From a virus (lineage: Duplodnaviria; Caudoviricetes), in IMG/VR virus record IMGVR_UViG_3300029305_005443, positions 79,915-143,914 of that record: DNA of 64,000 nucleotides. One strand, written 5' to 3'. The position numbers and the translations under genes were made by a program. The notes under the pieces are model-generated. The model searched no databases. It was not told where the DNA came from and was given only the letters and a program-made list of their open reading frames with translations. Shown piece by piece: positions 11,719 through 64,000 of this stretch (its first letter is position 1; each line of letters starts with the position of its first letter).

Positions 11719-11834
11719 CCTCCTTTCTCAAAGATGCCCAAAAGAAATTTAACCAAGCATTTTCTCTGCTAAATTAAAAATTCATTTTTTGTTCCTTCTT
11801 GTCCTGCAGTTCTTTGTGCTTGTTTACATAATAT

Positions 11835-11922
11835 TCCCCCTTCGCCTAGTGGTAGGGCGCCGGTCTCTAAAACCGTTATACCTTTTGATGGGGTTGCCTG
11901 GGTTCAAATCCCAGAGGGGGTG
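11835..11922 (+). tRNA. Amber suppressor tRNA (anticodon CTA) with long variable arm
   Basis: Acceptor TCCCCCT/AGGGGGT-G, D arm GCCT-AGTGGTA-GGGC, anticodon arm CGGT-CTCTAAA-ACCG (CTA 11867-11869), T arm CTGGG-TTCAAAT-CCCAG. Confidence 0.9.
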
Positions 11923-11927
11923 TTCAA

Positions 11928-12001
11928 TGGGATGTAGCGCAGCAGGTTAGCGCGTCGGTCTTATAAACCGCAGGTCATGGGTTCGAGTCCCATCATCCCT
12001 A
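11928..12001 (+). tRNA. tRNA-Ile(TAT)
   Basis: Cloverleaf; anticodon arm CGGT-CTTATAA-ACCG; T arm ATGGG-TTCGAGT-CCCAT. Confidence 0.85.
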
Positions 12002-12073: not shown

Positions 12074-12104
12074 TAGACAAATCAATTGGTAAAGGGTGCA
12101 AATT

Positions 12105-13325
12105 ATGCTGAATAAAAAGGGAGAAAGAGAGTTAGCATATCTTGTAAAAATAGATGACATTCAGCCAATTGTTGGCTCTGACAACTGCGAGTCCGCTGTT
12201 GTGGGGGCTTGGCATATTATGGTCAAAAAAGGTACATTTAGCGTTGGTGACGTTGCAATCTATTTTGAAATTGATTCTCTTCTTGATATTACTAAACCAG
12301 AGTTTGCTTTTATGGAGAAATATAAAGGCAAAGTAAAGACTCAGCGTTATACTTTCGGCGGTAAAGGAAACTTTATTAGTCAGGGTCTTTTGATGCACCC
12401 GAACGATTTTGGTTGGGTTACTATTATTGATGAGAATGAAATTCAGTATGGTGTTATGACCAATACAAGTAAGCCTGATAGAACCCTCGATAATGAATCG
12501 CGGTTTCTTACAGAACTTCTTGGTGTTAAATATTATGACCCCGCCGATGAACAGAGAAAAGGAACTGGCAAAAAGAAACAGCCTGCTATGCCTAAATTCT
12601 TCTATATGGGAATTGGAAGAAAGATGATGAGAGTAAAATGGCTTAAGCCTATTCTCATTAAGATTTTTGGGAAGAAAGTTAAAGTGACTCCCTGGCCTTA
12701 TTGGGTTGTAAAGACAGATGAGGAGAGGGTTCAGAATATCCCAGATATTATACACCAAGAAGATAAATGGATTGCCACAGAAAAAATTGATGGTTCTTCT
12801 TCTACTTATACTATGATTAGGCACGGTAAGAAATTTGAATTCTATATGTGTTCCAGAAATGTTGTCTTTACAAGTAAAGAAGATAAATGTTATTATGATT
12901 CCAACATTTATGTTGAAATTGCTTCAAAATATCCATTTGAAGAAACATTGAAGAAGTACCTTATCGAAAATAAAGATGTTGATTGGGTTACAATACAGGG
13001 AGAAATCTATGGACAAGGTGTTCAAAAAAGAGATTATTCTATCGACCACAAGGACTTCGTCGCCTTCAATCTAATTGACTCAAAGAGGGGAAGGTGGAAT
13101 TCTTGCGAGGCTAAAGAATGGCTTTCTCAATTTGGAATCCCGTTTGTCCCAATCCTTAATGACTCTTTTGAAATGCCGGATACAGTAGATGAACTTCTTG
13201 AATTCGTAAACGGAAATTCTGTGTTAGATGGAAAGCCAAGAGAAGGATTTGTTTTTAGAAGCAAAGACGGAATTAAGAGTTTCAAAGCTGTTAGTAATGA
13301 GTACCTTTTAAAATATCATTCATAA
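12105..13325 (+). CDS. ATP-dependent RNA ligase, DRB0094/Rnl2-like family
   Basis: N-terminal LAYLVKIDDIQPI..DVAIYFEIDSLL..SQGLL; nucleotidyltransferase motifs TEKIDGSS, QGEIYG, FVAFNL, REGFVFR, SFKAVSNEYLLK; no TAG. Confidence 0.9.
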   Translation: MLNKKGERELAYLVKIDDIQPIVGSDNCESAVVGAWHIMVKKGTFSVGDVAIYFEIDSLLDITKPEFAFMEKYKGKVKTQRYTFGGKGNFISQGLLMHPNDFGWVTIIDENEIQYGVMTNTSKPDRTLDNESRFLTELLGVKYYDPADEQRKGTGKKKQPAMPKFFYMGIGRKMMRVKWLKPILIKIFGKKVKVTPWPYWVVKTDEERVQNIPDIIHQEDKWIATEKIDGSSSTYTMIRHGKKFEFYMCSRNVVFTSKEDKCYYDSNIYVEIASKYPFEETLKKYLIENKDVDWVTIQGEIYGQGVQKRDYSIDHKDFVAFNLIDSKRGRWNSCEAKEWLSQFGIPFVPILNDSFEMPDTVDELLEFVNGNSVLDGKPREGFVFRSKDGIKSFKAVSNEYLLKYHS

Positions 13326-13546: not shown

Positions 13547-13593
13547 CTCGACGGGCTGTAAGCGTAGGATATTGATTATATCCGAGGCCCGTT

Positions 13594-13640
13594 AAGGCTC
13601 ATACAGCAAAAGTTCTTTTGAGGGATAAAAGACGAGCCTT
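13594..13640 (+). ncRNA. CAGCAA stem-loop RNA E1
   Basis: AAGGCTC-ATA-CAGCAA..inner hairpin..GAGCCTT. Confidence 0.7.
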
Positions 13641-13659
13641 GTTTATAGTAAAAGGTTTT

Positions 13660-13745: not shown

Positions 13746-13747
13746 TT

Positions 13748-13812
13748 AAGGCTCCTGCAGCAACTAATTCATGCCAGTAGCGTTCTGTCATTGGTTCAAG
13801 TCCGATACCGAG
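13748..13812 (+). ncRNA. CAGCAA RNA E2, truncated, with T arm
   Basis: AAGGCTC-CTG-CAGCAA, then ATTGG-TTCAAGT-CCGAT nearly identical to the E6 T arm; no closing strand. Confidence 0.55.
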
Positions 13813-13817
13813 TATAG

Positions 13818-13890
13818 GGGGCTGTAGCTCAGTTGGGAGAGCGCCTGATCTGCAATCAGGAGGCAGTGGGTTCGAACCCCATCAGCTCCA
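13818..13890 (+). tRNA. tRNA-Ala(TGC)
   Basis: GGGGCTG/CAGCTCC-A with G3:U70; CCTGA-TCTGCAA-TCAGG (atypical C33). Confidence 0.9.
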
Positions 13891-13972
13891 CTCTTGCAAA
13901 GGGCATAAATAGGAATCATGCGTAGGATTTTTCTGTTGGTCTTTTGCAACGAAAGAAAAAAGACCGAACCAG

Positions 13973-14056: not shown

Positions 14057-14126
14057 CTTTGTTGAAAAACAAATGTTCTATAGAAACTGTTTAGGATTGA
14101 GGGTTCGAGTCCGACACGAAGCATCT

Positions 14127-14229: not shown

Positions 14230-14266
14230 TTGACAAATTTCTATTTTGTGATATATTGTATATAAT
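14230..14266 (+). promoter_or_regulatory. Promoter region (TTGACA plus TTGTATATAAT motif)
   Basis: TTGACA 14230, TG-N-TATATT at 16-nt spacing, overlapping TTGTATATAA 14256. Confidence 0.6.
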
Positions 14267-14481: not shown

Positions 14482-15036
14482 TGGTATATGAGTTCATGGT
14501 AACACTCAGTATACCAAGTGCAAAGGTACCCCCACTTACGAAACGTACCTTAGAACAGGATAATGCAAGGGATAAACTGTTCAACACTTTTTTGTGGTGA
14601 TATTAAATGGACACCTCTGATAGCGACTAAAAACTGTAGCCAAGTGCAAGGTTCAACTCCTTGAATATCACCTTAGAGGTGTTATGAGCCCCAGTCGAAA
14701 AATCATAGGTAGATTCCTTCCTGAACAGAATAGCAAGCCGAGGCCCGGGCACGTCAAGACAGGGCTGGTTTGGGGATTGTACCACAAATCCTTCGCTGAG
14801 AACTCCGGCGTCCAATGAGTTTCAGCGGTGCCACCCCGCTTATGGCTGACTACCAAGGTGGTATATATTTACTTGGGACTTATAGGGTCTAGTCCCCCCA
14901 ACTTATGGTGAGACTTCCCACCTTAAGAGAAGCGCATCAGTTAAGGGATGCATAGCCTTAACAACAACCTATCCCCAATAAGCGATGAGCCGTAGGTTGG
15001 TTTAAGTGTTGTATAACGAAAAGGGATAAGACACAC
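14482..15036 (+). ncRNA. Candidate large structured ncRNA (or array of small ones) between tRNA-Pro and tRNA-Asn
   Basis: GC-rich, no credible ORF, about ten successive hairpins with GU pairs and a tRNA-like acceptor/T domain at 14596-14672. Confidence 0.6.
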
Positions 15037-15225: not shown

Positions 15226-15297
15226 GCCGCAATGGCTCAATGGCAGAGCAGCTCACTTGTAATGAGCAGGTTGATGGTTCGACTCCGTCTTGCGGCT
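15226..15297 (+). tRNA. tRNA-Thr(TGT)
   Basis: GCCGCAA/TTGCGGC-T; GCTCA-CTTGTAA-TGAGC. Confidence 0.92.
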
Positions 15298-15347
15298 TAG
15301 GCACTGACAGCATAATTTTTAGGACTGAAAATCTTAAGTTGTGCCTT
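15298..15347 (+). ncRNA. CAGCA stem-loop RNA E3 with Phe(GAA)-like anticodon loop
   Basis: TAGGCAC-TGA-CAGCAT..TTAGGA-CTGAAAA-TCTTAA..GTGCCTT. Confidence 0.7.
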
Positions 15348-15358
15348 GTTACTTTAAA

Positions 15359-15422
15359 AAGACGCTTGCAGCAATTACTTCTAAACATTTGAGTTGTAAT
15401 CAAAATTGGTTAATGGCGTCTT
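15359..15422 (+). ncRNA. CAGCAA stem-loop RNA E4 with Thr(TGT)-like anticodon loop
   Basis: AAGACGC-TTG-CAGCAA..TTTGA-GTTGTAA-TCAAA..GCGTCTT. Confidence 0.7.
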
Positions 15423-15448
15423 GGTGCGTATTTAGAAAGAGGTTTGAG

Positions 15449-16996
15449 ATGAGTTTTTTAGATAACTTAAAAAATGAAAATAACTTAACATTTACTGAGA
15501 ATGGTGCTGTTGCATTATCTTCTACAATGAATGCTTGTTTGGATGCTTTTGGCTCTCTTGGAGCTATGAAAAACTCCAATGAAAGTGTTATTCTTGATAC
15601 TTTCAAGAAAGCATTTGCAGAAGATAGAAAACTTGCCATGAAGATTCTTTTCTATATGAGGGATGCCCGTGGCGGTCAGGGTATGCGCAGGGTTTTTAGG
15701 ACTATTGTTACTTATCTTGCAAACAATCACCCTGAGTTTGTTGAGAACAATTTTAAGAATTTTGCAGAGTATGGAAGATGGGACGATTTTCTTTGTTTGT
15801 TGGATACTGATCTTAAAGAAAATGTTTTGTCCTATATTAAATCACAACTTCTTGAAGATGTTTGCAACTGGTACGATAATAAGCCAGTTTCTCTTCTTGC
15901 AAAGTGGCTTCCTTCTGAGAATGCATCTTCTCAGAAAACTATTGAAACAGCCAAAACCATTAGGAAATATTTGGGGTGGTCTCCGAGATCCTATCGTAAA
16001 ACCCTCTCTAAGCTTCGCAATTATTTGAATGTTGTTGAAGTTAAAATGTCTTCCAATGAATGGAACAAAATTGATTATGCATCTGTTCCTGGTAAAGCAT
16101 CACTTAATTATTCTGATGCCTTTACAAAACACGATGAAGAAAGATATATTAATTTCCTTATAAATACTTCTTCGCTCAATGCAAATGCACTTTTCCCGGT
16201 AGACATTATACATAAAGTTATTGAATTAAATAATAGAAGAAAATGCTCGAGCAAGGATAGGATCTTGCTTGATAAGATGTGGAAATCTCTTCCAAATTAT
16301 CTTGAAGGCAAAGAAGAAACAGGCATTTGCATGGTAGATACGTCGGGTTCTATGTATGGGACTCCGTATGAAGTGGCTCTTTCTCTTGGCATTTATTGCG
16401 CTGATAAGTGTAAAGGACCTTTTAAGAATCATTTCATCACCTTCAGTGAAAATCCTGAGCTTGTATCCTTGCAAGGGGCAGACCTTGTTGAGAAAGTTTC
16501 TAATATTAGATGCATCAATGCTGGAAACACTAACTTTGAAGCAGCTCTTGATTTAATTCTAGACACTGCTGTGAAGTATGGAACCCCTCAGGAAGATCTT
16601 CCTAGTAAGTTATATGTAATTTCTGATATGCAGTTTGATGTGGCAAGGTGCGAGCGGCATTACACTGGCTGGTCCTTCAAGTATACGCCTACTGAGCCAT
16701 TTATGGAAAAAATGCGTAGAAAATATGAGGCACACGGTTACAAGCTTCCGTCCATTGTATATTGGAATGTTCGCGCATCTGAATGCGGAATGTTTCAGCA
16801 AAAATTCGATGGTGAAGATTGCGCCATGGTTAGTGGGTATTCAGCTTCGTTATTCAAATCCATTATTGAGGGTACCACTTATGAGGAGGTGGTTTCTGAA
16901 GATGGTAAGTCAACTAAGAGAGAAAAAATTGACCCTCTCACTGTTATGTTGACAACCCTTAATAATCCCAGGTACGATAAAGTCTGGGTCGGATAA
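15449..16996 (+). CDS. DUF2828 family protein (TROVE/Ro60-like helical domain + vWA)
   Basis: TENGA, FYMRDARGGQGMRRVF, YGRWDD, AKWLPSE, MIDAS-like VDTSGSM, NTNF, VISDMQFD, IVYWNVR, VSGYS; GAGGT RBS; no TAG. Confidence 0.88.
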   Translation: MSFLDNLKNENNLTFTENGAVALSSTMNACLDAFGSLGAMKNSNESVILDTFKKAFAEDRKLAMKILFYMRDARGGQGMRRVFRTIVTYLANNHPEFVENNFKNFAEYGRWDDFLCLLDTDLKENVLSYIKSQLLEDVCNWYDNKPVSLLAKWLPSENASSQKTIETAKTIRKYLGWSPRSYRKTLSKLRNYLNVVEVKMSSNEWNKIDYASVPGKASLNYSDAFTKHDEERYINFLINTSSLNANALFPVDIIHKVIELNNRRKCSSKDRILLDKMWKSLPNYLEGKEETGICMVDTSGSMYGTPYEVALSLGIYCADKCKGPFKNHFITFSENPELVSLQGADLVEKVSNIRCINAGNTNFEAALDLILDTAVKYGTPQEDLPSKLYVISDMQFDVARCERHYTGWSFKYTPTEPFMEKMRRKYEAHGYKLPSIVYWNVRASECGMFQQKFDGEDCAMVSGYSASLFKSIIEGTTYEEVVSEDGKSTKREKIDPLTVMLTTLNNPRYDKVWVG

Positions 16997-17008
16997 CAAT
17001 AAAATATT

Positions 17009-17062
17009 AAGGCAGTCACAGCAAGTTTATAAAAATGCTTTGAATGTTTATAATACTGCCTT
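17009..17062 (+). ncRNA. CAGCAA stem-loop RNA E5 with Gln(TTG)-like anticodon loop
   Basis: AAGGCAG-TCA-CAGCAA..AAATG-CTTTGAA-TGTTT..CTGCCTT. Confidence 0.7.
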
Positions 17063-17074
17063 GAACATAAACAA

Positions 17075-17208
17075 TAAACCCTAACAGCAATTCTATTTGA
17101 GGTTATAGTTAACTTTTCTTGTCATTGGTTCGAGTCCAATCTCATATTGCGAGCACGCTCACATTATGAGTAGCACAGTTGGTAGTGCAAAAAGGGAAAA
17201 TGGGTTTA
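17075..17208 (+). ncRNA. Y-RNA (YrlA)-like RNA E6: CAGCAA stem enclosing a circularly permuted tRNA domain
   Basis: TAAACCC-TAA-CAGCAA..CTTTT, T arm ATTGG-TTCGAGT-CCAAT, loop-closed acceptor CTCATA/TATGAG, D arm GCAC-AGTTGGTA-GTGC, AAAAG..GGGTTTA. Confidence 0.85.
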
Positions 17209-17218
17209 GTAAAAACAA

Positions 17219-17273
17219 AAGACGGATACAGCAATCATTTATAATCAAAGCTACTGGATTTAAATTCCGTCTT
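17219..17273 (+). ncRNA. CAGCAA stem-loop RNA E7
   Basis: AAGACGG-ATA-CAGCAA..inner AU hairpin..CCGTCTT. Confidence 0.7.
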
Positions 17274-17279
17274 GATTTT

Positions 17280-17353
17280 AGGGGTTTCGGCAAGTGGTTC
17301 AAGCCAACGGACTTTGACTCCGTGACTCAGTAGTTCGAATCTACTAACCCCTG
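17280..17353 (+). tRNA. tRNA-Gln(TTG)
   Basis: AGGGGTT/AACCCCT-G; ACGGA-CTTTGAC-TCCGT. Confidence 0.92.
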
Positions 17354-17394
17354 CTGCACTGTTCGTTCATTGTGCAACCTCCTTTCTTTTTTCT

Positions 17395-17429
17395 GGCAAG
17401 CATCTGAAATATGGTGCTTGCCTATTTTT
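17395..17429 (+). terminator. Intrinsic terminator ending the RNA island
   Basis: GGCAAGCATC-loop-GGTGCTTGCC followed by TATTTTT. Confidence 0.8.
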
Positions 17430-63150: not shown

Positions 63151-63447
63151 ATGGCTACAAAGAATCTTGTCGAAGCTTACAAGAATCGTATCAATGTTGC
63201 TGATGCTTATCATGCTCAGACACACAATGGTCAAAAGATGGATTCTTACAAGAAGCTTCTCATTGCTAACTCTCTTAACAATGTTTCTCGTTTTATGAAC
63301 GAGGCTTTTGAGCAATCTGCTGGTACACAACGCGCTGCCCTCGGCGATTATAAGCGTTTCTGCCTTACACTTACCACTCTTGCTCTTCCAAATATGATTG
63401 CTCCAGAAATCGTGCTTACAGTCCCAATGGCTTCAAGAACAGGATAT
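63151..63447 (+). CDS. Major capsid protein (T4 gp23-like), exon 1
   Basis: Follows protease/scaffold; LPNMIAPEIVLTVPMASRTGY resembles gp23 PNLIA..VQPM..PTG; interrupted by intron. Confidence 0.85.
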
Positions 63448-64000
63448 AAAATGTAATGTATCCCTAATATGGTAACATATTAGAAAATAACCTTGTTAAT
63501 TGCTGGAAACTCCGAAAGGACAATCAGCAGCCAAGCCCCAAAACTGGGGAAGGTTCAACGACTATCGAAAGCATAGCATTGAAGAAATATCAATGTGAAG
63601 AAGTGAGTAGAGTAGGGGTTCGCTCCGAAAGACAAGGCATCCAATAAAGGTTAAAACAATGTTGGATGATAATATAGTCTGAACATTATAGAAATATAGT
63701 GAGTTTGGCATTACTAATGAATAGCCTACTTCTGCATCCATAAGTGCAGATTTTATCCAAATCAATTCAATCTTTTATGGAGGATTATATGACAAAAGAA
63801 TAGAAGTGTTCTGAATCGCAATTAGGAAGAGTTGTGATCCACAAGGGTGACTTTGAAAAAAGGGTGCTTCCTTAGGAATTAGATACATATTTCTCTAATG
63901 GATGGTTGACGGGTGTCTCAGAAAAACATCGTAAAAGTAGGTCTAATAGGAAGGGAAGTTGCAATGGAAAAAACAAAATCTTCAAAGAAGATGTCATTAA
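63448..64000 (+). mobile_element. Group I self-splicing intron (3' end beyond window)
   Basis: P1 GGATAT/GTATCC with U.G splice pair; P AATTGCTGGAAAC, Q AATCAGCAG, R GTTCAACGACTA, S AATATAGTCT; P3 CCTTGTT/GACAAGG; P8 CATCCAATA/TGTTGGATG. Confidence 0.92.
63789..64000 (+). CDS. Intron-encoded putative homing endonuclease, 3' partial, 2 TAGs
   Basis: GGAGG RBS; MTKE[TAG]KCSESQLGRVVIHKGDFEKRVLP[TAG]ELDTYFSNGW resembles NUMOD-type DNA-binding modules; nuclease domain not in window. Confidence 0.65.

What the first reader, a model, noticed from the sequence alone, without database searches (positions are those of the whole stretch)
15298..17062. Three CAGCAA RNAs display tRNA anticodon stem-loop mimics (Phe, Thr, Gln)
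Seen: the inner hairpins have 7-nt loops with U at the U33-equivalent position and AA after the triplet: TTAGGA-CTGAAAA-TCTTAA (15325-15331, Phe GAA), TTTGA-GTTGTAA-TCAAA (15393-15399, Thr TGT) and AAATG-CTTTGAA-TGTTT (17038-17044, Gln TTG). E1 and E7 lack a clear loop of this type. Known: anti-phage anticodon nucleases (PrrC, RloC, PARIS AriB, VapC-like toxins) cut specific anticodon loops and phages counter with tRNAs and RNA ligases. Inference: these are protein-held anticodon decoys or baits, or sponges for tRNA-modifying enzymes or synthetases.
Basis: partly seen in the sequence, partly recalled or inferred. Interest (0 to 1): 0.85.

Follow-up and report, generated by a model that had tools for sequence, protein, structure and literature searches.

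The report
Anticodon-arm mimics on phage Y-like RNAs
Small RNAs flanking a Ro60-shaped protein gene in this 144-kb phage carry hairpins built like tRNA anticodon arms. The same design recurs far above chance in related phages, so these RNAs probably present a tRNA part to tRNA-recognising proteins, though which proteins is untested.

Summary
All three hairpins are at the stated coordinates. E3 (15318-15338, loop CUGAAAA) and E4 (15388-15404, loop GUUGUAA) are good anticodon-arm look-alikes. E5 (17033-17049, CUUUGAA) is weak: two G.U pairs close the loop and its orthologues keep no stem.

In 126 non-redundant short "CAGCAA" RNAs from 165 homologous loci:
- 7-nt loops on stems of 5 bp or more occur in 43 (shuffles 19.8).
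- YU-NNN-RA loops occur in 15 (0.98).
- CU-NNN-AA loops occur in 12 (0.19), all CU-NN-UAA, and the stems are almost always exactly 5 bp.
- A hold-out set of loci repeats the result.

Displayed triplets vary: UUU, GUU, UGU, GAU, GCU, GAA, UGA.

The flanked protein (DUF2828/DUF7788) models as a Ro60 ring plus vWA domain (Z 14.9 to Xenopus Ro60). The RNAs are therefore best read as Y-RNA-like partners whose apical module mimics a tRNA part, here the anticodon arm that known YrlA Y RNAs lack.

The decoy, bait or sponge function is inference only. I found neither the RNA family nor the protein-RNA pairing in Rfam 15 or in the papers searched. This scan has already noted the family on other DNA (128 notes, at least 108 genomes).

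The parts
15299..15346 (+). E3: Y-like RNA. Handle AGGCAC (15299-15304) / GTGCCT (15341-15346), motif ACAGCAT (15307-15313), apical hairpin 15318-15338 with loop CUGAAAA (Phe-type GAA). It starts 1 nt after tRNA-Thr.
   Evidence: 10.6 bits, 11/2000 shuffles. Positional orthologue L084 3019-3086 carries AATGA-CTTTTAA-TCATT.
15359..15422 (+). E4: Y-like RNA. Handle AAGACGCT / GGCGTCTT, motif CAGCAA 15369-15374, apical hairpin 15388-15404 TTTGA-GUUGUAA-TCAAA (Thr-type UGU; U36-A41 reads UAAUCA; G at position 32).
   Evidence: Identical hairpin in L001 3911-3971; covarying stem in L080 3917-3979.
15449..16996 (+). Gene for a 515-aa DUF2828 + DUF7788 (vWA) protein with an intact MIDAS motif (DTSGS). 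It is predicted to be a Ro60-like ring.
   Evidence: Pfam. AF2 model pLDDT 81.7. Foldseek top 10 hits are all Ro60. VIA-align Z 10.9-14.9 over about 400 residues, against Z 8 or less for vWA-only hits.
17007..17064 (+). E5: Y-like RNA. Handle TTAAGGCAGT / ACTGCCTTGA, motif CAGCAA 17019-17024. Weak hairpin 17033-17049 with loop CUUUGAA (Gln-type UUG).
   Evidence: 1.8 bits. Orthologues lack the stem.
17075..17208 (+). E6: long Y-like RNA with the same handle and a T-arm-containing, tRNA-like body (context, not one of the three).
   Evidence: Rfam YrlA 29.9 bits, below the gathering score of 69, model positions 20-89 only.
17219..17273 (+). E7: short Y-like RNA with the same handle and no anticodon-type loop. 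It ends 6 nt before tRNA-Gln.
13593..13641 (+). E1: short Y-like RNA with the same handle. Its 7-nt loop GAGGGAU is not anticodon-like.
15226..15297 (+). Real tRNA-Thr(UGU), directly upstream of E3 and E4.
17280..17354 (+). Real tRNA-Gln(UUG), directly downstream of E7.
17395..17422 (+). Terminator-like hairpin plus T run. It is the only one on the + strand between 11.5 and 17.7 kb, so E3-E7, the gene and the tRNAs are probably one transcript that is then processed.
   Evidence: promoter-like sites at 14230 and 17435.
12096..13325 (+). RNA ligase gene (PF09414 with a PHA02142 OB-fold domain) in the same tRNA/ncRNA cluster.

Best explanation
E3, E4 and, doubtfully, E5 are members of an undescribed family of Y-RNA-like small RNAs. 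They are partner RNAs of the phage's Ro60-shaped DUF2828 protein.

Each RNA has a constant 'handle': a 6-10-bp stem formed by its two ends, followed on the 5' side by unpaired ACAGCAA. This is presumably the protein-binding site, in the position where Ro60 reads GGUCCGA or CGAA in known Y RNAs. Each also has a variable apical module derived from or imitating a tRNA part.

In E3 and E4 that module is an anticodon arm: a 5-bp stem with G30-C40 and A31-U39, and a 7-nt loop with U33, A37 and A38.

The most likely mode of action is the Y-RNA one. The handle holds the RNA on the ring protein, and the tRNA-like module engages a protein that recognises that tRNA part. For an anticodon arm, the candidate clients are anticodon nucleases, anticodon-loop modifying enzymes (t6A/i6A class) or synthetases. 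The RNP would then compete with, or tether, such a protein during infection.

Shown: the sequence anatomy, family-wide conservation, linkage to the gene, and the protein's predicted fold. Inferred: protein binding to the handle, RNA processing from the tRNA transcript, and every step of the function.
For: (1) The handle family is real and tied to the gene.
- There are 296 signature handles on the gene strand of 166 loci against 6 on the other strand.
- In the window's own 144-kb genome the seven true handles (those with the full AAG/TAG-type stem) all lie at 13.6-17.3 kb around the gene; a few looser 6-bp matches elsewhere look like chance hits (with E5).

(2) The protein is Ro60-like.
- Foldseek's top 10 hits are all Ro60, including phage phiLo Ro60.
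- VIA-align gives Z 14.9, rmsd 4.4 A and 410 aligned residues to 1yvr, well separated from vWA-only hits.

(3) Anticodon-arm design is selected.
- Among stems of at least 5 bp, the loop-size histogram peaks only at 7 nt (50 against 22.6 expected).
- CU-NNN-AA loops occur in 12 of 126 short elements against 0.19 in shuffles, and in 0 of the reverse or reverse-complement controls.
- Of 24 CT..TAA heptamers inside short elements, 12 are flanked by 5 bp or more (11 by exactly 5). The figure is 3.15% of 1810 elsewhere in the loci.
- The result repeats in hold-out loci.
- G30/C40 occur in about 40% of candidate hairpins, in linker sequence where G is scarce (0-12% per position in the flanking linker sequence).
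- The same stem carries different triplets: TTTGA/TCAAA with GUUGUAA, CUGUUAA and CUUUUAA.

(4) Other family members carry T arms (27 of 66 long elements against 0.09 expected), D-arm-like loops or whole tRNA-shaped bodies. tRNA-part display is therefore the family's theme.

(5) Precedent.
- YrlA Y RNAs mimic tRNA and are modified by tRNA enzymes (PMC4201824).
- Phage phiLo Ro60 binds two phage-encoded Y-like RNAs (PMC12135203).
Against:
- The hairpins are A/U-rich and thermodynamically marginal. None of the three is in the MFE fold of its element, and only 12 of 21 family examples are.
- E4 has G32, which no real tRNA in the loci has.
- E5 lacks orthologous stem conservation.
- Only a minority of short elements show the design. 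Many apical hairpins are not tRNA-like.
- Non-redundant elements are still phylogenetically related, so counts overstate the number of independent events.
- The protein has no sequence-level match to TROVE or Ro60.
Confidence: 0.6

Rival explanations
1. Specific decoy or sensor for host anticodon nucleases. The Ro-like RNP presents cleavable or tight-binding anticodon arms (Lys UUU, Asn GUU, Thr UGU and others) that soak up defence tRNases and so protect real tRNAs. This is the first reader's leading idea, and it is a special case of the best explanation.
For: - The commonest displayed triplets are UUU (5-6 examples), GUU (3) and UGU (3, plus GGU). Together with minor tRNA-Thr(CGU), these are the AriB/PARIS targets, and its site is U36AAUC|A41 (PMC12409363).
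- E4 and several relatives read UAAUCA at those positions.
- The genes sit inside phage tRNA arrays (657 tRNAs in 112 loci) and near an RNA ligase. Both are known counters to tRNA-cleaving defences.
Against: - AriB needs contacts outside the anticodon arm (PMC12409363), so a bare arm may not be recognised.
- The host and its defence repertoire are unknown.
- U-rich triplets are also what A/T-rich sequence favours.
- Phe (GAA), Ser (UGA), Ile and others are displayed too.
- The phage's own tRNA-Lys keeps UAAUCA, so there is no resistant-tRNA-plus-sensitive-decoy pattern.
Confidence: 0.25
2. Tether or substrate mimic for tRNA-maturation enzymes or synthetases, or a platform for tRNA repair. The arm recruits an anticodon-loop enzyme (the t6A37 or i6A37 machinery, or LysRS/AsnRS/ThrRS-type anticodon readers) or the phage RNA ligase to the Ro-like ring.
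For: - All 12 strict CU-NNN-AA loops in short elements have U36-A37-A38. That is the loop type of ANN-decoding, t6A37-bearing tRNAs (PMC11014344). The chance of this is 0.38^12, about 1e-5, given tRNA frequencies in the loci (my arithmetic).
- The rest are mostly A36-A37-A38 (GAA, UGA, UCA, GUA), the i6A class (my own knowledge).
- YrlA is modified by TruB and DusA (PMC4201824).
- TROVE with a tRNA-like partner has been proposed as an RNA-repair platform in jumbo phages (PMC7824862).
Against: - No modification or binding data exist.
- The U36/A36 bias may partly reflect A/T richness.
- It is unclear what a phage gains from sponging t6A or i6A enzymes.
Confidence: 0.2
3. Evolutionary left-overs. 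The modules descend from tRNA genes of the surrounding array, and the hairpin now serves only as a generic structural cap or gate on the Ro-like ring, with no anticodon-specific reading.
For: - Long family members still hold whole tRNA-shaped bodies.
- Apical modules turn over quickly between orthologous positions.
- Most short elements have non-tRNA-like hairpins.
Against: - Loop length, C32/U33/A37/A38, the G30-C40 pair and the exact 5-bp stem are kept while stems covary and triplets change. Drift would erase these.
- Reverse-complement controls give 0-2 hits.
Confidence: 0.15
4. Chance hairpins in A/T-rich spacer sequence.
For:
- The MFE folds do not contain them.
- E5's stem is two G.U pairs plus three A-U pairs and is not conserved.
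Against: - Per-element shuffle tests give 6-11 of 2000.
- The family-wide enrichment and the hold-out replication argue against chance.
- E4's stem covaries in L080.
Confidence: 0.05

Closest known systems
Bacterial and mycobacteriophage YrlA/YrlB Y RNAs bound by Ro60/Rsr (Chen et al. 2014, PMC4201824; Rfam RF02553)
   Same: - Small RNAs encoded beside a Ro60-type ring protein.
- A terminal stem formed from the 5' and 3' ends.
- A conserved unpaired motif on the 5' strand next to that stem.
- A large internal loop.
- An effector module that mimics tRNA.
- An RNA-ligase neighbourhood.
   Different: - The motif is ACAGCAA, not GNCGAA(N)G.
- The protein is DUF2828/DUF7788, with no TROVE hit by sequence.
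- There are up to 7-8 RNAs per locus.
- The modules here are single anticodon arms, the one tRNA arm that YrlA lacks.
- The Rfam YrlA model gives no hit for E3-E5, and only 29.9 bits (gathering score 69) for E6.
Thermus phage phiLo Ro60 with its two phage-encoded Y-like RNAs Yrl1 and Yrl2 (PMC12135203; PDB 9kop, 9l5y)
   Same: - A phage-encoded Ro60-type protein; it is among the best structural matches to the model (Z 14.1-14.8).
- It binds phage-encoded RNAs that have a 5'-3' stem flanking a bulge containing the binding motif.
   Different: - phiLo Yrls carry the CGAA motif.
- They are reported to bridge to host PNPase.
- No anticodon-arm module is described for them.
Class I RNAs of dictyostelid social amoebae (PMC7919456)
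   Same: - 42-65-nt RNAs.
- A short covarying stem joining the two ends.
- They start AAG.
- An about 11-nt unpaired motif lies next to the 5' strand. Its conserved T, C, C, A, A at positions 3, 6, 9, 10, 11 fit ..T..C..CAA, as in ...ACAGCAA here.
- A variable remainder.
   Different: - They are eukaryotic and polymerase-transcribed from their own promoters.
- The known binder is an RRM protein.
- The paper does not print the motif in its text, so the match is only partly checked.
- No Rfam family hit the window's elements.
Phage tRNAs that counter tRNA-cleaving defences (phage T5 tRNA-Lys/Thr/Asn against PARIS AriB, PMC12409363)
   Same: - Phage-encoded RNAs bearing Lys(UUU), Thr(UGU) and Asn(GUU) anticodon arms.
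- They sit in tRNA arrays and are possibly aimed at the same class of host nucleases.
   Different: - Those are complete, decoding tRNAs that replace the cleaved host tRNA.
- The RNAs here have no acceptor, D or T arm and cannot decode.

Membership tests
tRNA anticodon stem-loop (structural mimic) | 5-bp stem closing a 7-nt loop | tested here: met
   - E4's stem is exactly 5 bp.
- E3 has a 5-bp core that extends to 7 bp with two G.U pairs.
- E5 is 5 bp, but with G.U and U.G pairs next to the loop.
- In the family, 11 of 12 stems around CT..TAA are exactly 5 bp.
tRNA anticodon stem-loop (structural mimic) | Y32, U33, R37 (A38 common) | tested here: inconclusive
   E3 and E5 meet all of these. 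E4 has G32, found in 0 of 471 real tRNAs of the loci, and this G is conserved in L001 and L080.
tRNA anticodon stem-loop (structural mimic) | G30-C40 and A31-U39 pairs (G30 82%, C40 80% in 471 phage tRNAs) | tested here: met
   Present in E3 and E4, absent in E5.
   enrichment of 15- to more than 60-fold; reverse and reverse-complement controls give 0-2 hits; the hold-out set repeats the result.
tRNA anticodon stem-loop (structural mimic) | Recognised by anticodon-arm-binding proteins (nucleases, modifying enzymes, synthetases) | not testable with these tools
   Needs biochemistry.
Functional tRNA | Acceptor stem, D and T arms, cloverleaf | tested here: not met
   ARAGORN and the Rfam tRNA model call nothing at E3, E4 or E5. 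The elements are only 48-64 nt.
Y RNA / YrlA (RF02553) | Encoded next to a Ro60/TROVE protein gene | tested here: met
   The elements lie within 30-150 nt of a gene whose model matches Ro60 over both domains (Z 10.9-14.9). Caveat: there is no Pfam TROVE hit and no PDB sequence hit.
Y RNA / YrlA (RF02553) | Terminal 5'-3' stem plus a conserved 5'-strand motif of the GGUCCGA / GNCGAA(N)G / CGAA type | tested here: not met
   The architecture is the same but the motif is ACAGCAA (A before CAGCAA in 101 of 112 elements).
Y RNA / YrlA (RF02553) | Score at or above the Rfam gathering threshold | tested here: not met
   E3-E5 give no hit at E of 10 or less. E6 scores 29.9 against 69. No YrlA hit appears in 15 related loci.
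Y RNA / YrlA (RF02553) | Physical binding to the Ro60-type protein | not testable with these tools
   Only co-location and strand bias are available.
Dictyostelid Class I RNA | Short terminal stem, AAG start, 11-nt motif beside the 5' strand | tested here: inconclusive
   The description in PMC7919456 fits. However, the motif letters are in a figure, and no covariance-model comparison was possible.
AriB (PARIS) substrate | U36AAUC|A41 site plus contacts outside the anticodon arm | tested here: inconclusive
   E4 reads UAAUCA at positions 36-41. The RNAs lack the D-loop and other parts that the paper says are also needed (PMC12409363).

The most novel reading that the evidence does not exclude
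The anticodon-arm modules are cleavage-sensing baits. In the resting RNP the Y-like RNA gates the Ro-like ring. A host anticodon nuclease that cuts the displayed arm (Lys, Asn, Thr and other types) breaks the gate. That frees the ring to capture the ends of cleaved tRNAs and hand them to the neighbouring phage RNA ligase. This would be an RNA-based sensor that switches on tRNA repair only when the defence fires.
Probability: 0.08. Interest if true: 0.92.

Novelty: new variant of a known kind. Interest (0 to 1): 0.7.

Why it matters
tRNA cleavage in or beside the anticodon loop is now recognised as a common anti-phage weapon. The known phage answers are replacement tRNAs and repair enzymes. A widespread family of phage RNAs that mount isolated anticodon arms on a handle for a Ro60-like protein would be a third kind of answer, or a new way to hijack tRNA enzymes.

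It would also give a function to DUF2828/DUF7788. That family gave more than 7000 significant hits among the 8000 candidates scored in the search used here, and it has eukaryotic members.

It extends the Y-RNA idea of a protein-held tRNA mimic to the one tRNA arm that known Y RNAs lack. Finally, it offers a testable link to the unexplained Class I RNAs of social amoebae. The RNAs are short and the protein is soluble-looking, so binding, cleavage and structure experiments are straightforward.

Tried and rejected
- A single-protein scan of viral contigs found no close relatives. An alignment was needed.
- A profile search of PDB sequences found no Ro60. Only the fold comparison did.
- Rfam at gathering threshold on the window and on 15 related loci gave only tRNA, tmRNA, HEARO and group I intron hits.
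- Papers: nothing links DUF2828 or DUF7788 to RNAs.
- MFE folding does not recover the three hairpins. I therefore relied on comparative tests.
- 'Resistant phage tRNA plus sensitive decoy' idea: the window's tRNA-Thr has UAAUGA and tRNA-Asn has UAACCG. However, the phage's own tRNA-Lys keeps UAAUCA, and few loci hold a same-anticodon tRNA within the fetched flanks. There is no support.
- Generic YUNR U-turn loop of antisense RNAs: position 35 is not consistently a purine (GUU, UUU, GCU). Rejected as the explanation of the conserved positions.
- Queuine-insertion (TGT) site U33-G34-U35: fits only the GUU loops. Rejected as a general reading.
- The reverse-complement control is uninformative for the loose pattern NU...RN, because the complement of such loops often matches it. 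Only the strict patterns were used.
- Complex prediction was not used, because it takes no RNA.
Full report
**What is at the coordinates**

The region lies in a tRNA/ncRNA cluster of a 143.9-kb, 34.7% G+C phage genome with 13 tRNAs, including a CUA suppressor.

Between tRNA-Thr(UGU) (15226-15297) and tRNA-Gln(UUG) (17280-17354) lies one protein gene (15449-16996). Five small elements flank it, and two more sit near 13.6-13.8 kb. All share a 'handle': a 6-10-bp stem formed by the element's two ends, one to three bases, then CAGCAA (CAGCAT in E3).

- E3: TTAGGA / CUGAAAA / TCTTAA (15319-15337).
- E4: TTTGA / GUUGUAA / TCAAA (15388-15404).
- E5: AAATG / CUUUGAA / TGTTT (17033-17049).

E3 and E4 also have the G30-C40 and A31-U39 pairs typical of tRNA anticodon stems. 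E5 instead closes its loop with G.U and U.G pairs. E4 has G at position 32, which none of 471 real tRNAs from related loci has. RNAfold does not place any of the three hairpins in the minimum-energy fold of the isolated element. On thermodynamics alone the observation would be weak.

**The neighbouring protein**

Pfam sees DUF2828 plus DUF7788 and a weak vWA signal. A profile search of PDB sequences finds nothing relevant.

An AlphaFold model built on 25 homologues (pLDDT 81.7) matches Ro60 proteins over its full length:
- Foldseek's ten best hits are all Ro60/TROVE structures, including Ro60 of Thermus phage phiLo.
- VIA-align gives Z 14.9 (rmsd 4.4 A, 410 residues) to Xenopus Ro60 and Z 10.9-14.8 to the others. 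The next hits, which match the vWA domain only, score Z 8 or less.
- The MIDAS motif (D-x-S-x-S) is invariant in the alignment.

Ro60 proteins bind Y RNAs through a stem formed by the RNA's ends and a conserved motif on its 5' strand (PMC4201824). Phage phiLo Ro60 binds two phage-encoded Y-like RNAs of that design (PMC12135203). An RNA ligase gene (PF09414) lies 2 kb upstream. The only terminator-like site on this strand follows tRNA-Gln, so the RNAs, the gene and the tRNAs are probably co-transcribed and then processed.

**The handle family is real and tied to the gene**

I collected 165 loci that encode homologues of 35-75% identity, from viral and metagenome contigs.

- A mechanical scan for stem, spacer and CAGCA[A/T/G] with the AGRY signature finds 296 elements on the gene strand and 6 on the other. 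Of these, 192 are non-redundant.
- In the window's own genome the seven true handles (those with the full AAG/TAG-type stem) all lie at 13.6-17.3 kb; a few looser 6-bp matches elsewhere look like chance hits.
- The base before CAGCAA is A in 101 of 112 elements, and the bases after it are almost free of G.
- The loci are packed with tRNA genes: 657 in 112 loci.
- No Rfam family reaches its gathering threshold at these elements in the window or in 15 related loci. Only E6 gives a sub-threshold YrlA hit to its tRNA-like core (29.9 bits against 69).

They are conserved.

In 126 non-redundant short elements (inner part 65 nt or less):

| Feature (stem of 5 bp or more) | Observed | Shuffle mean | Shuffle max (of 300) |
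|---|---|---|---|
| 7-nt loop | 43 | 19.8 | 32 |
| YU-NNN-RA loop | 15 | 0.98 | 4 |
| CU-NNN-AA loop | 12 | 0.19 | 2 |

- Reverse-complemented and reversed sequences give 0-2 hits.
- The loop-size histogram is flat apart from a peak at 7 nt (50 against 22.6 expected), with 9-nt loops modestly above expectation (30 against 20.2).
- A test that does not select on stems gives the same answer. Of 24 CT..TAA heptamers inside short elements, 12 are flanked by 5 bp or more (11 by exactly 5). The figure is 3.15% of 1810 such heptamers elsewhere in the loci.
- The patterns repeat in the 42 short elements from loci fetched later: YU-NNN-RA 3 against 0.28, and CU-NN-UAA 2 against 0.01.
- A matrix built from positions 30-33 and 37-40 of real tRNAs scores 8 bits or more in 5.6% of short elements, against 0.09% of shuffles.
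- With that matrix E3 scores 10.6 bits (real-tRNA median 8.8), E4 3.8 and E5 1.8. Between 6 and 11 of 2000 shuffles reach each score.

**Orthologues of the three hairpins**

- E4's hairpin is identical in L001 (protein 70% identical). In L080 (75%) it becomes TTAGT-GUGGUAA-ACTAA: the stem covaries, G32 is kept, and the triplet is still Thr-type.
- E3's positional orthologue in L084 is also a CAGCAT element directly after a tRNA. It carries AATGA-CUUUUAA-TCATT, a textbook Lys-type arm.
- E5's orthologues in L001 and L084 share its handle and a central CUGAAAA, but have no stem. I treat E5 as doubtful.

In a position-based sample, roughly one in six short elements next to the gene has a convincing anticodon-type arm. 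The design is recurrent but not universal, and modules turn over quickly.

**What is displayed**

The same stem can carry different triplets. TTTGA/TCAAA appears with GUUGUAA, CUGUUAA and CUUUUAA.

Triplets seen in short elements:
- UUU (5-6 examples), GUU (3), UGU (3) plus GGU, GAU, GCU, AAU.
- With looser stems: GAA (E3), UGA (3), UCA.

All 12 strict CU-NNN-AA loops have U36. That is the ANN-decoding, t6A37 class of anticodon loops (PMC11014344). U36 makes up 38% of the loci's tRNAs.

Other family members carry other tRNA parts:
- T arms occur in 27 of 66 long elements, against 0.09 expected.
- Some carry D-arm-like loops.
- Some carry permuted T-acceptor-D bodies of the YrlA type.
- Some carry tRNA-shaped bodies whose acceptor stem is replaced or extended by the handle.

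Displaying tRNA parts on a constant handle is therefore the family's theme. The anticodon arm is one of the parts, and it is the one that known YrlA RNAs lack (PMC4201824).

**How it most likely works**

By analogy with Ro60 and Y RNAs, the handle binds the ring protein. The module then engages a protein that recognises that tRNA part, so the RNP competes with or tethers it. This step is inferred.

Three candidate clients, in my order of likelihood:

1. Anticodon nucleases.
   - Apart from minor tRNA-Thr(CGU), the tRNAs cut by the PARIS nuclease AriB are Lys(UUU), Thr(UGU) and Asn(GUU), at U36AAUC|A41 (PMC12409363). E4 and several relatives read UAAUCA there.
   - However, AriB also needs contacts outside the arm, the host is unknown, and A/T-rich sequence favours these triplets anyway.
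2. Anticodon-loop modifying enzymes or synthetases, or recruitment of the nearby RNA ligase.
3. No anticodon-specific client at all, the hairpin being a relic.

None of these can be settled without experiments.

**Comparison with the known, and novelty**

The system works like a Ro60/Y-RNA particle but fails the membership tests for YrlA. The motif is different, it does not pass the Rfam threshold, and the protein family is different by sequence.

Searches of the paper library for DUF2828 or DUF7788 with RNAs found nothing.

The published description (AAG start, 6-bp covarying terminal stem, 11-nt motif with conserved T, C, C, A, A at positions 3, 6, 9, 10, 11) fits this handle. I could not check the motif letter by letter.

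The scan has already noted this family on other DNA: 128 notes in at least 108 genomes.

I rate it a new variant of a known kind.

**Limits**

- Non-redundant elements are still related by descent, so the counts are not independent events.
- The CU-NN-UAA refinement was seen in the first batch of loci and confirmed only on a small hold-out.
- There is no expression, binding or cleavage evidence of any kind.

Noticed in passing
window 13747-13960: E2: a handle 5' strand plus CAGCAA (13758). It is followed by a T-arm-like piece (CATTGGTTCAAGTCCGATAC) and then a complete tRNA-Ala (13818-13891). No simple 3' handle strand is present. RNAfold pairs the 5' part with sequence beyond the tRNA. Its architecture is unresolved.
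   Followed up: partly
window 14085-14125: An orphan T-arm-like fragment (GAGGGTTCGAGTCCGAC) between tRNA-Leu(UAA) and tRNA-Leu(CAA), with no tRNA call.
   Followed up: no
L088 4843-4935; L150 834-946; L141 2634-2738; L164 1599-1715; L154 397-503; L030 2902-3024: In six related loci the CAGCAA handle encloses a body that ARAGORN calls a whole tRNA (Tyr GUA twice, Met CAU twice, Leu GAG, Ile GAU). The acceptor stems are weak or A/U-rich. These look like tRNA-shaped partner RNAs rather than decoding tRNAs.
   Followed up: partly
L002 3856-3955; L034 2441-2528: Handles that enclose D + anticodon + T arms, or anticodon + T arms, whose loop CUUCAAA shows a UCA triplet. That would read UGA if the RNA ever decoded.
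   Followed up: no
Literature link (PMC7919456) to window E1-E7 handles: Dictyostelid Class I RNAs (AAG start, 6-bp terminal stem, 11-nt motif ending ..C..CAA) resemble this handle. DUF2828 also occurs in eukaryotes. Whether those amoebae pair Class I RNAs with a DUF2828 protein was not tested.
   Followed up: partly
window 63438-63701: Group I intron (Rfam 85.1 bits). A second one is in related locus L084 1358-1595.
   Followed up: no
window 11834-12001: Tandem suppressor tRNA (anticodon CUA, long variable arm) and tRNA-Ile(UAU), 5 nt apart. This suggests TAG recoding in this phage.
   Followed up: no
window 14482-15036: About 550 nt without a credible ORF between tRNA-Pro and tRNA-Asn. No Rfam family matched at E of 10 or less.
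   Followed up: no
L018 1563-1776; L022 2485-2742; L068 2421-2736: Related loci hold a HEARO RNA (103.9 bits) and phage-encoded tmRNAs in the same tRNA/ncRNA arrays.
   Followed up: no
L080, L081, L084, L085 downstream of the DUF2828 gene: A CLP_protease (ClpP-like) gene follows the RNA array in the closest relatives. No Pfam family matched any of the six window ORFs I scanned downstream of the cluster (17.5-21.8 kb).
   Followed up: no
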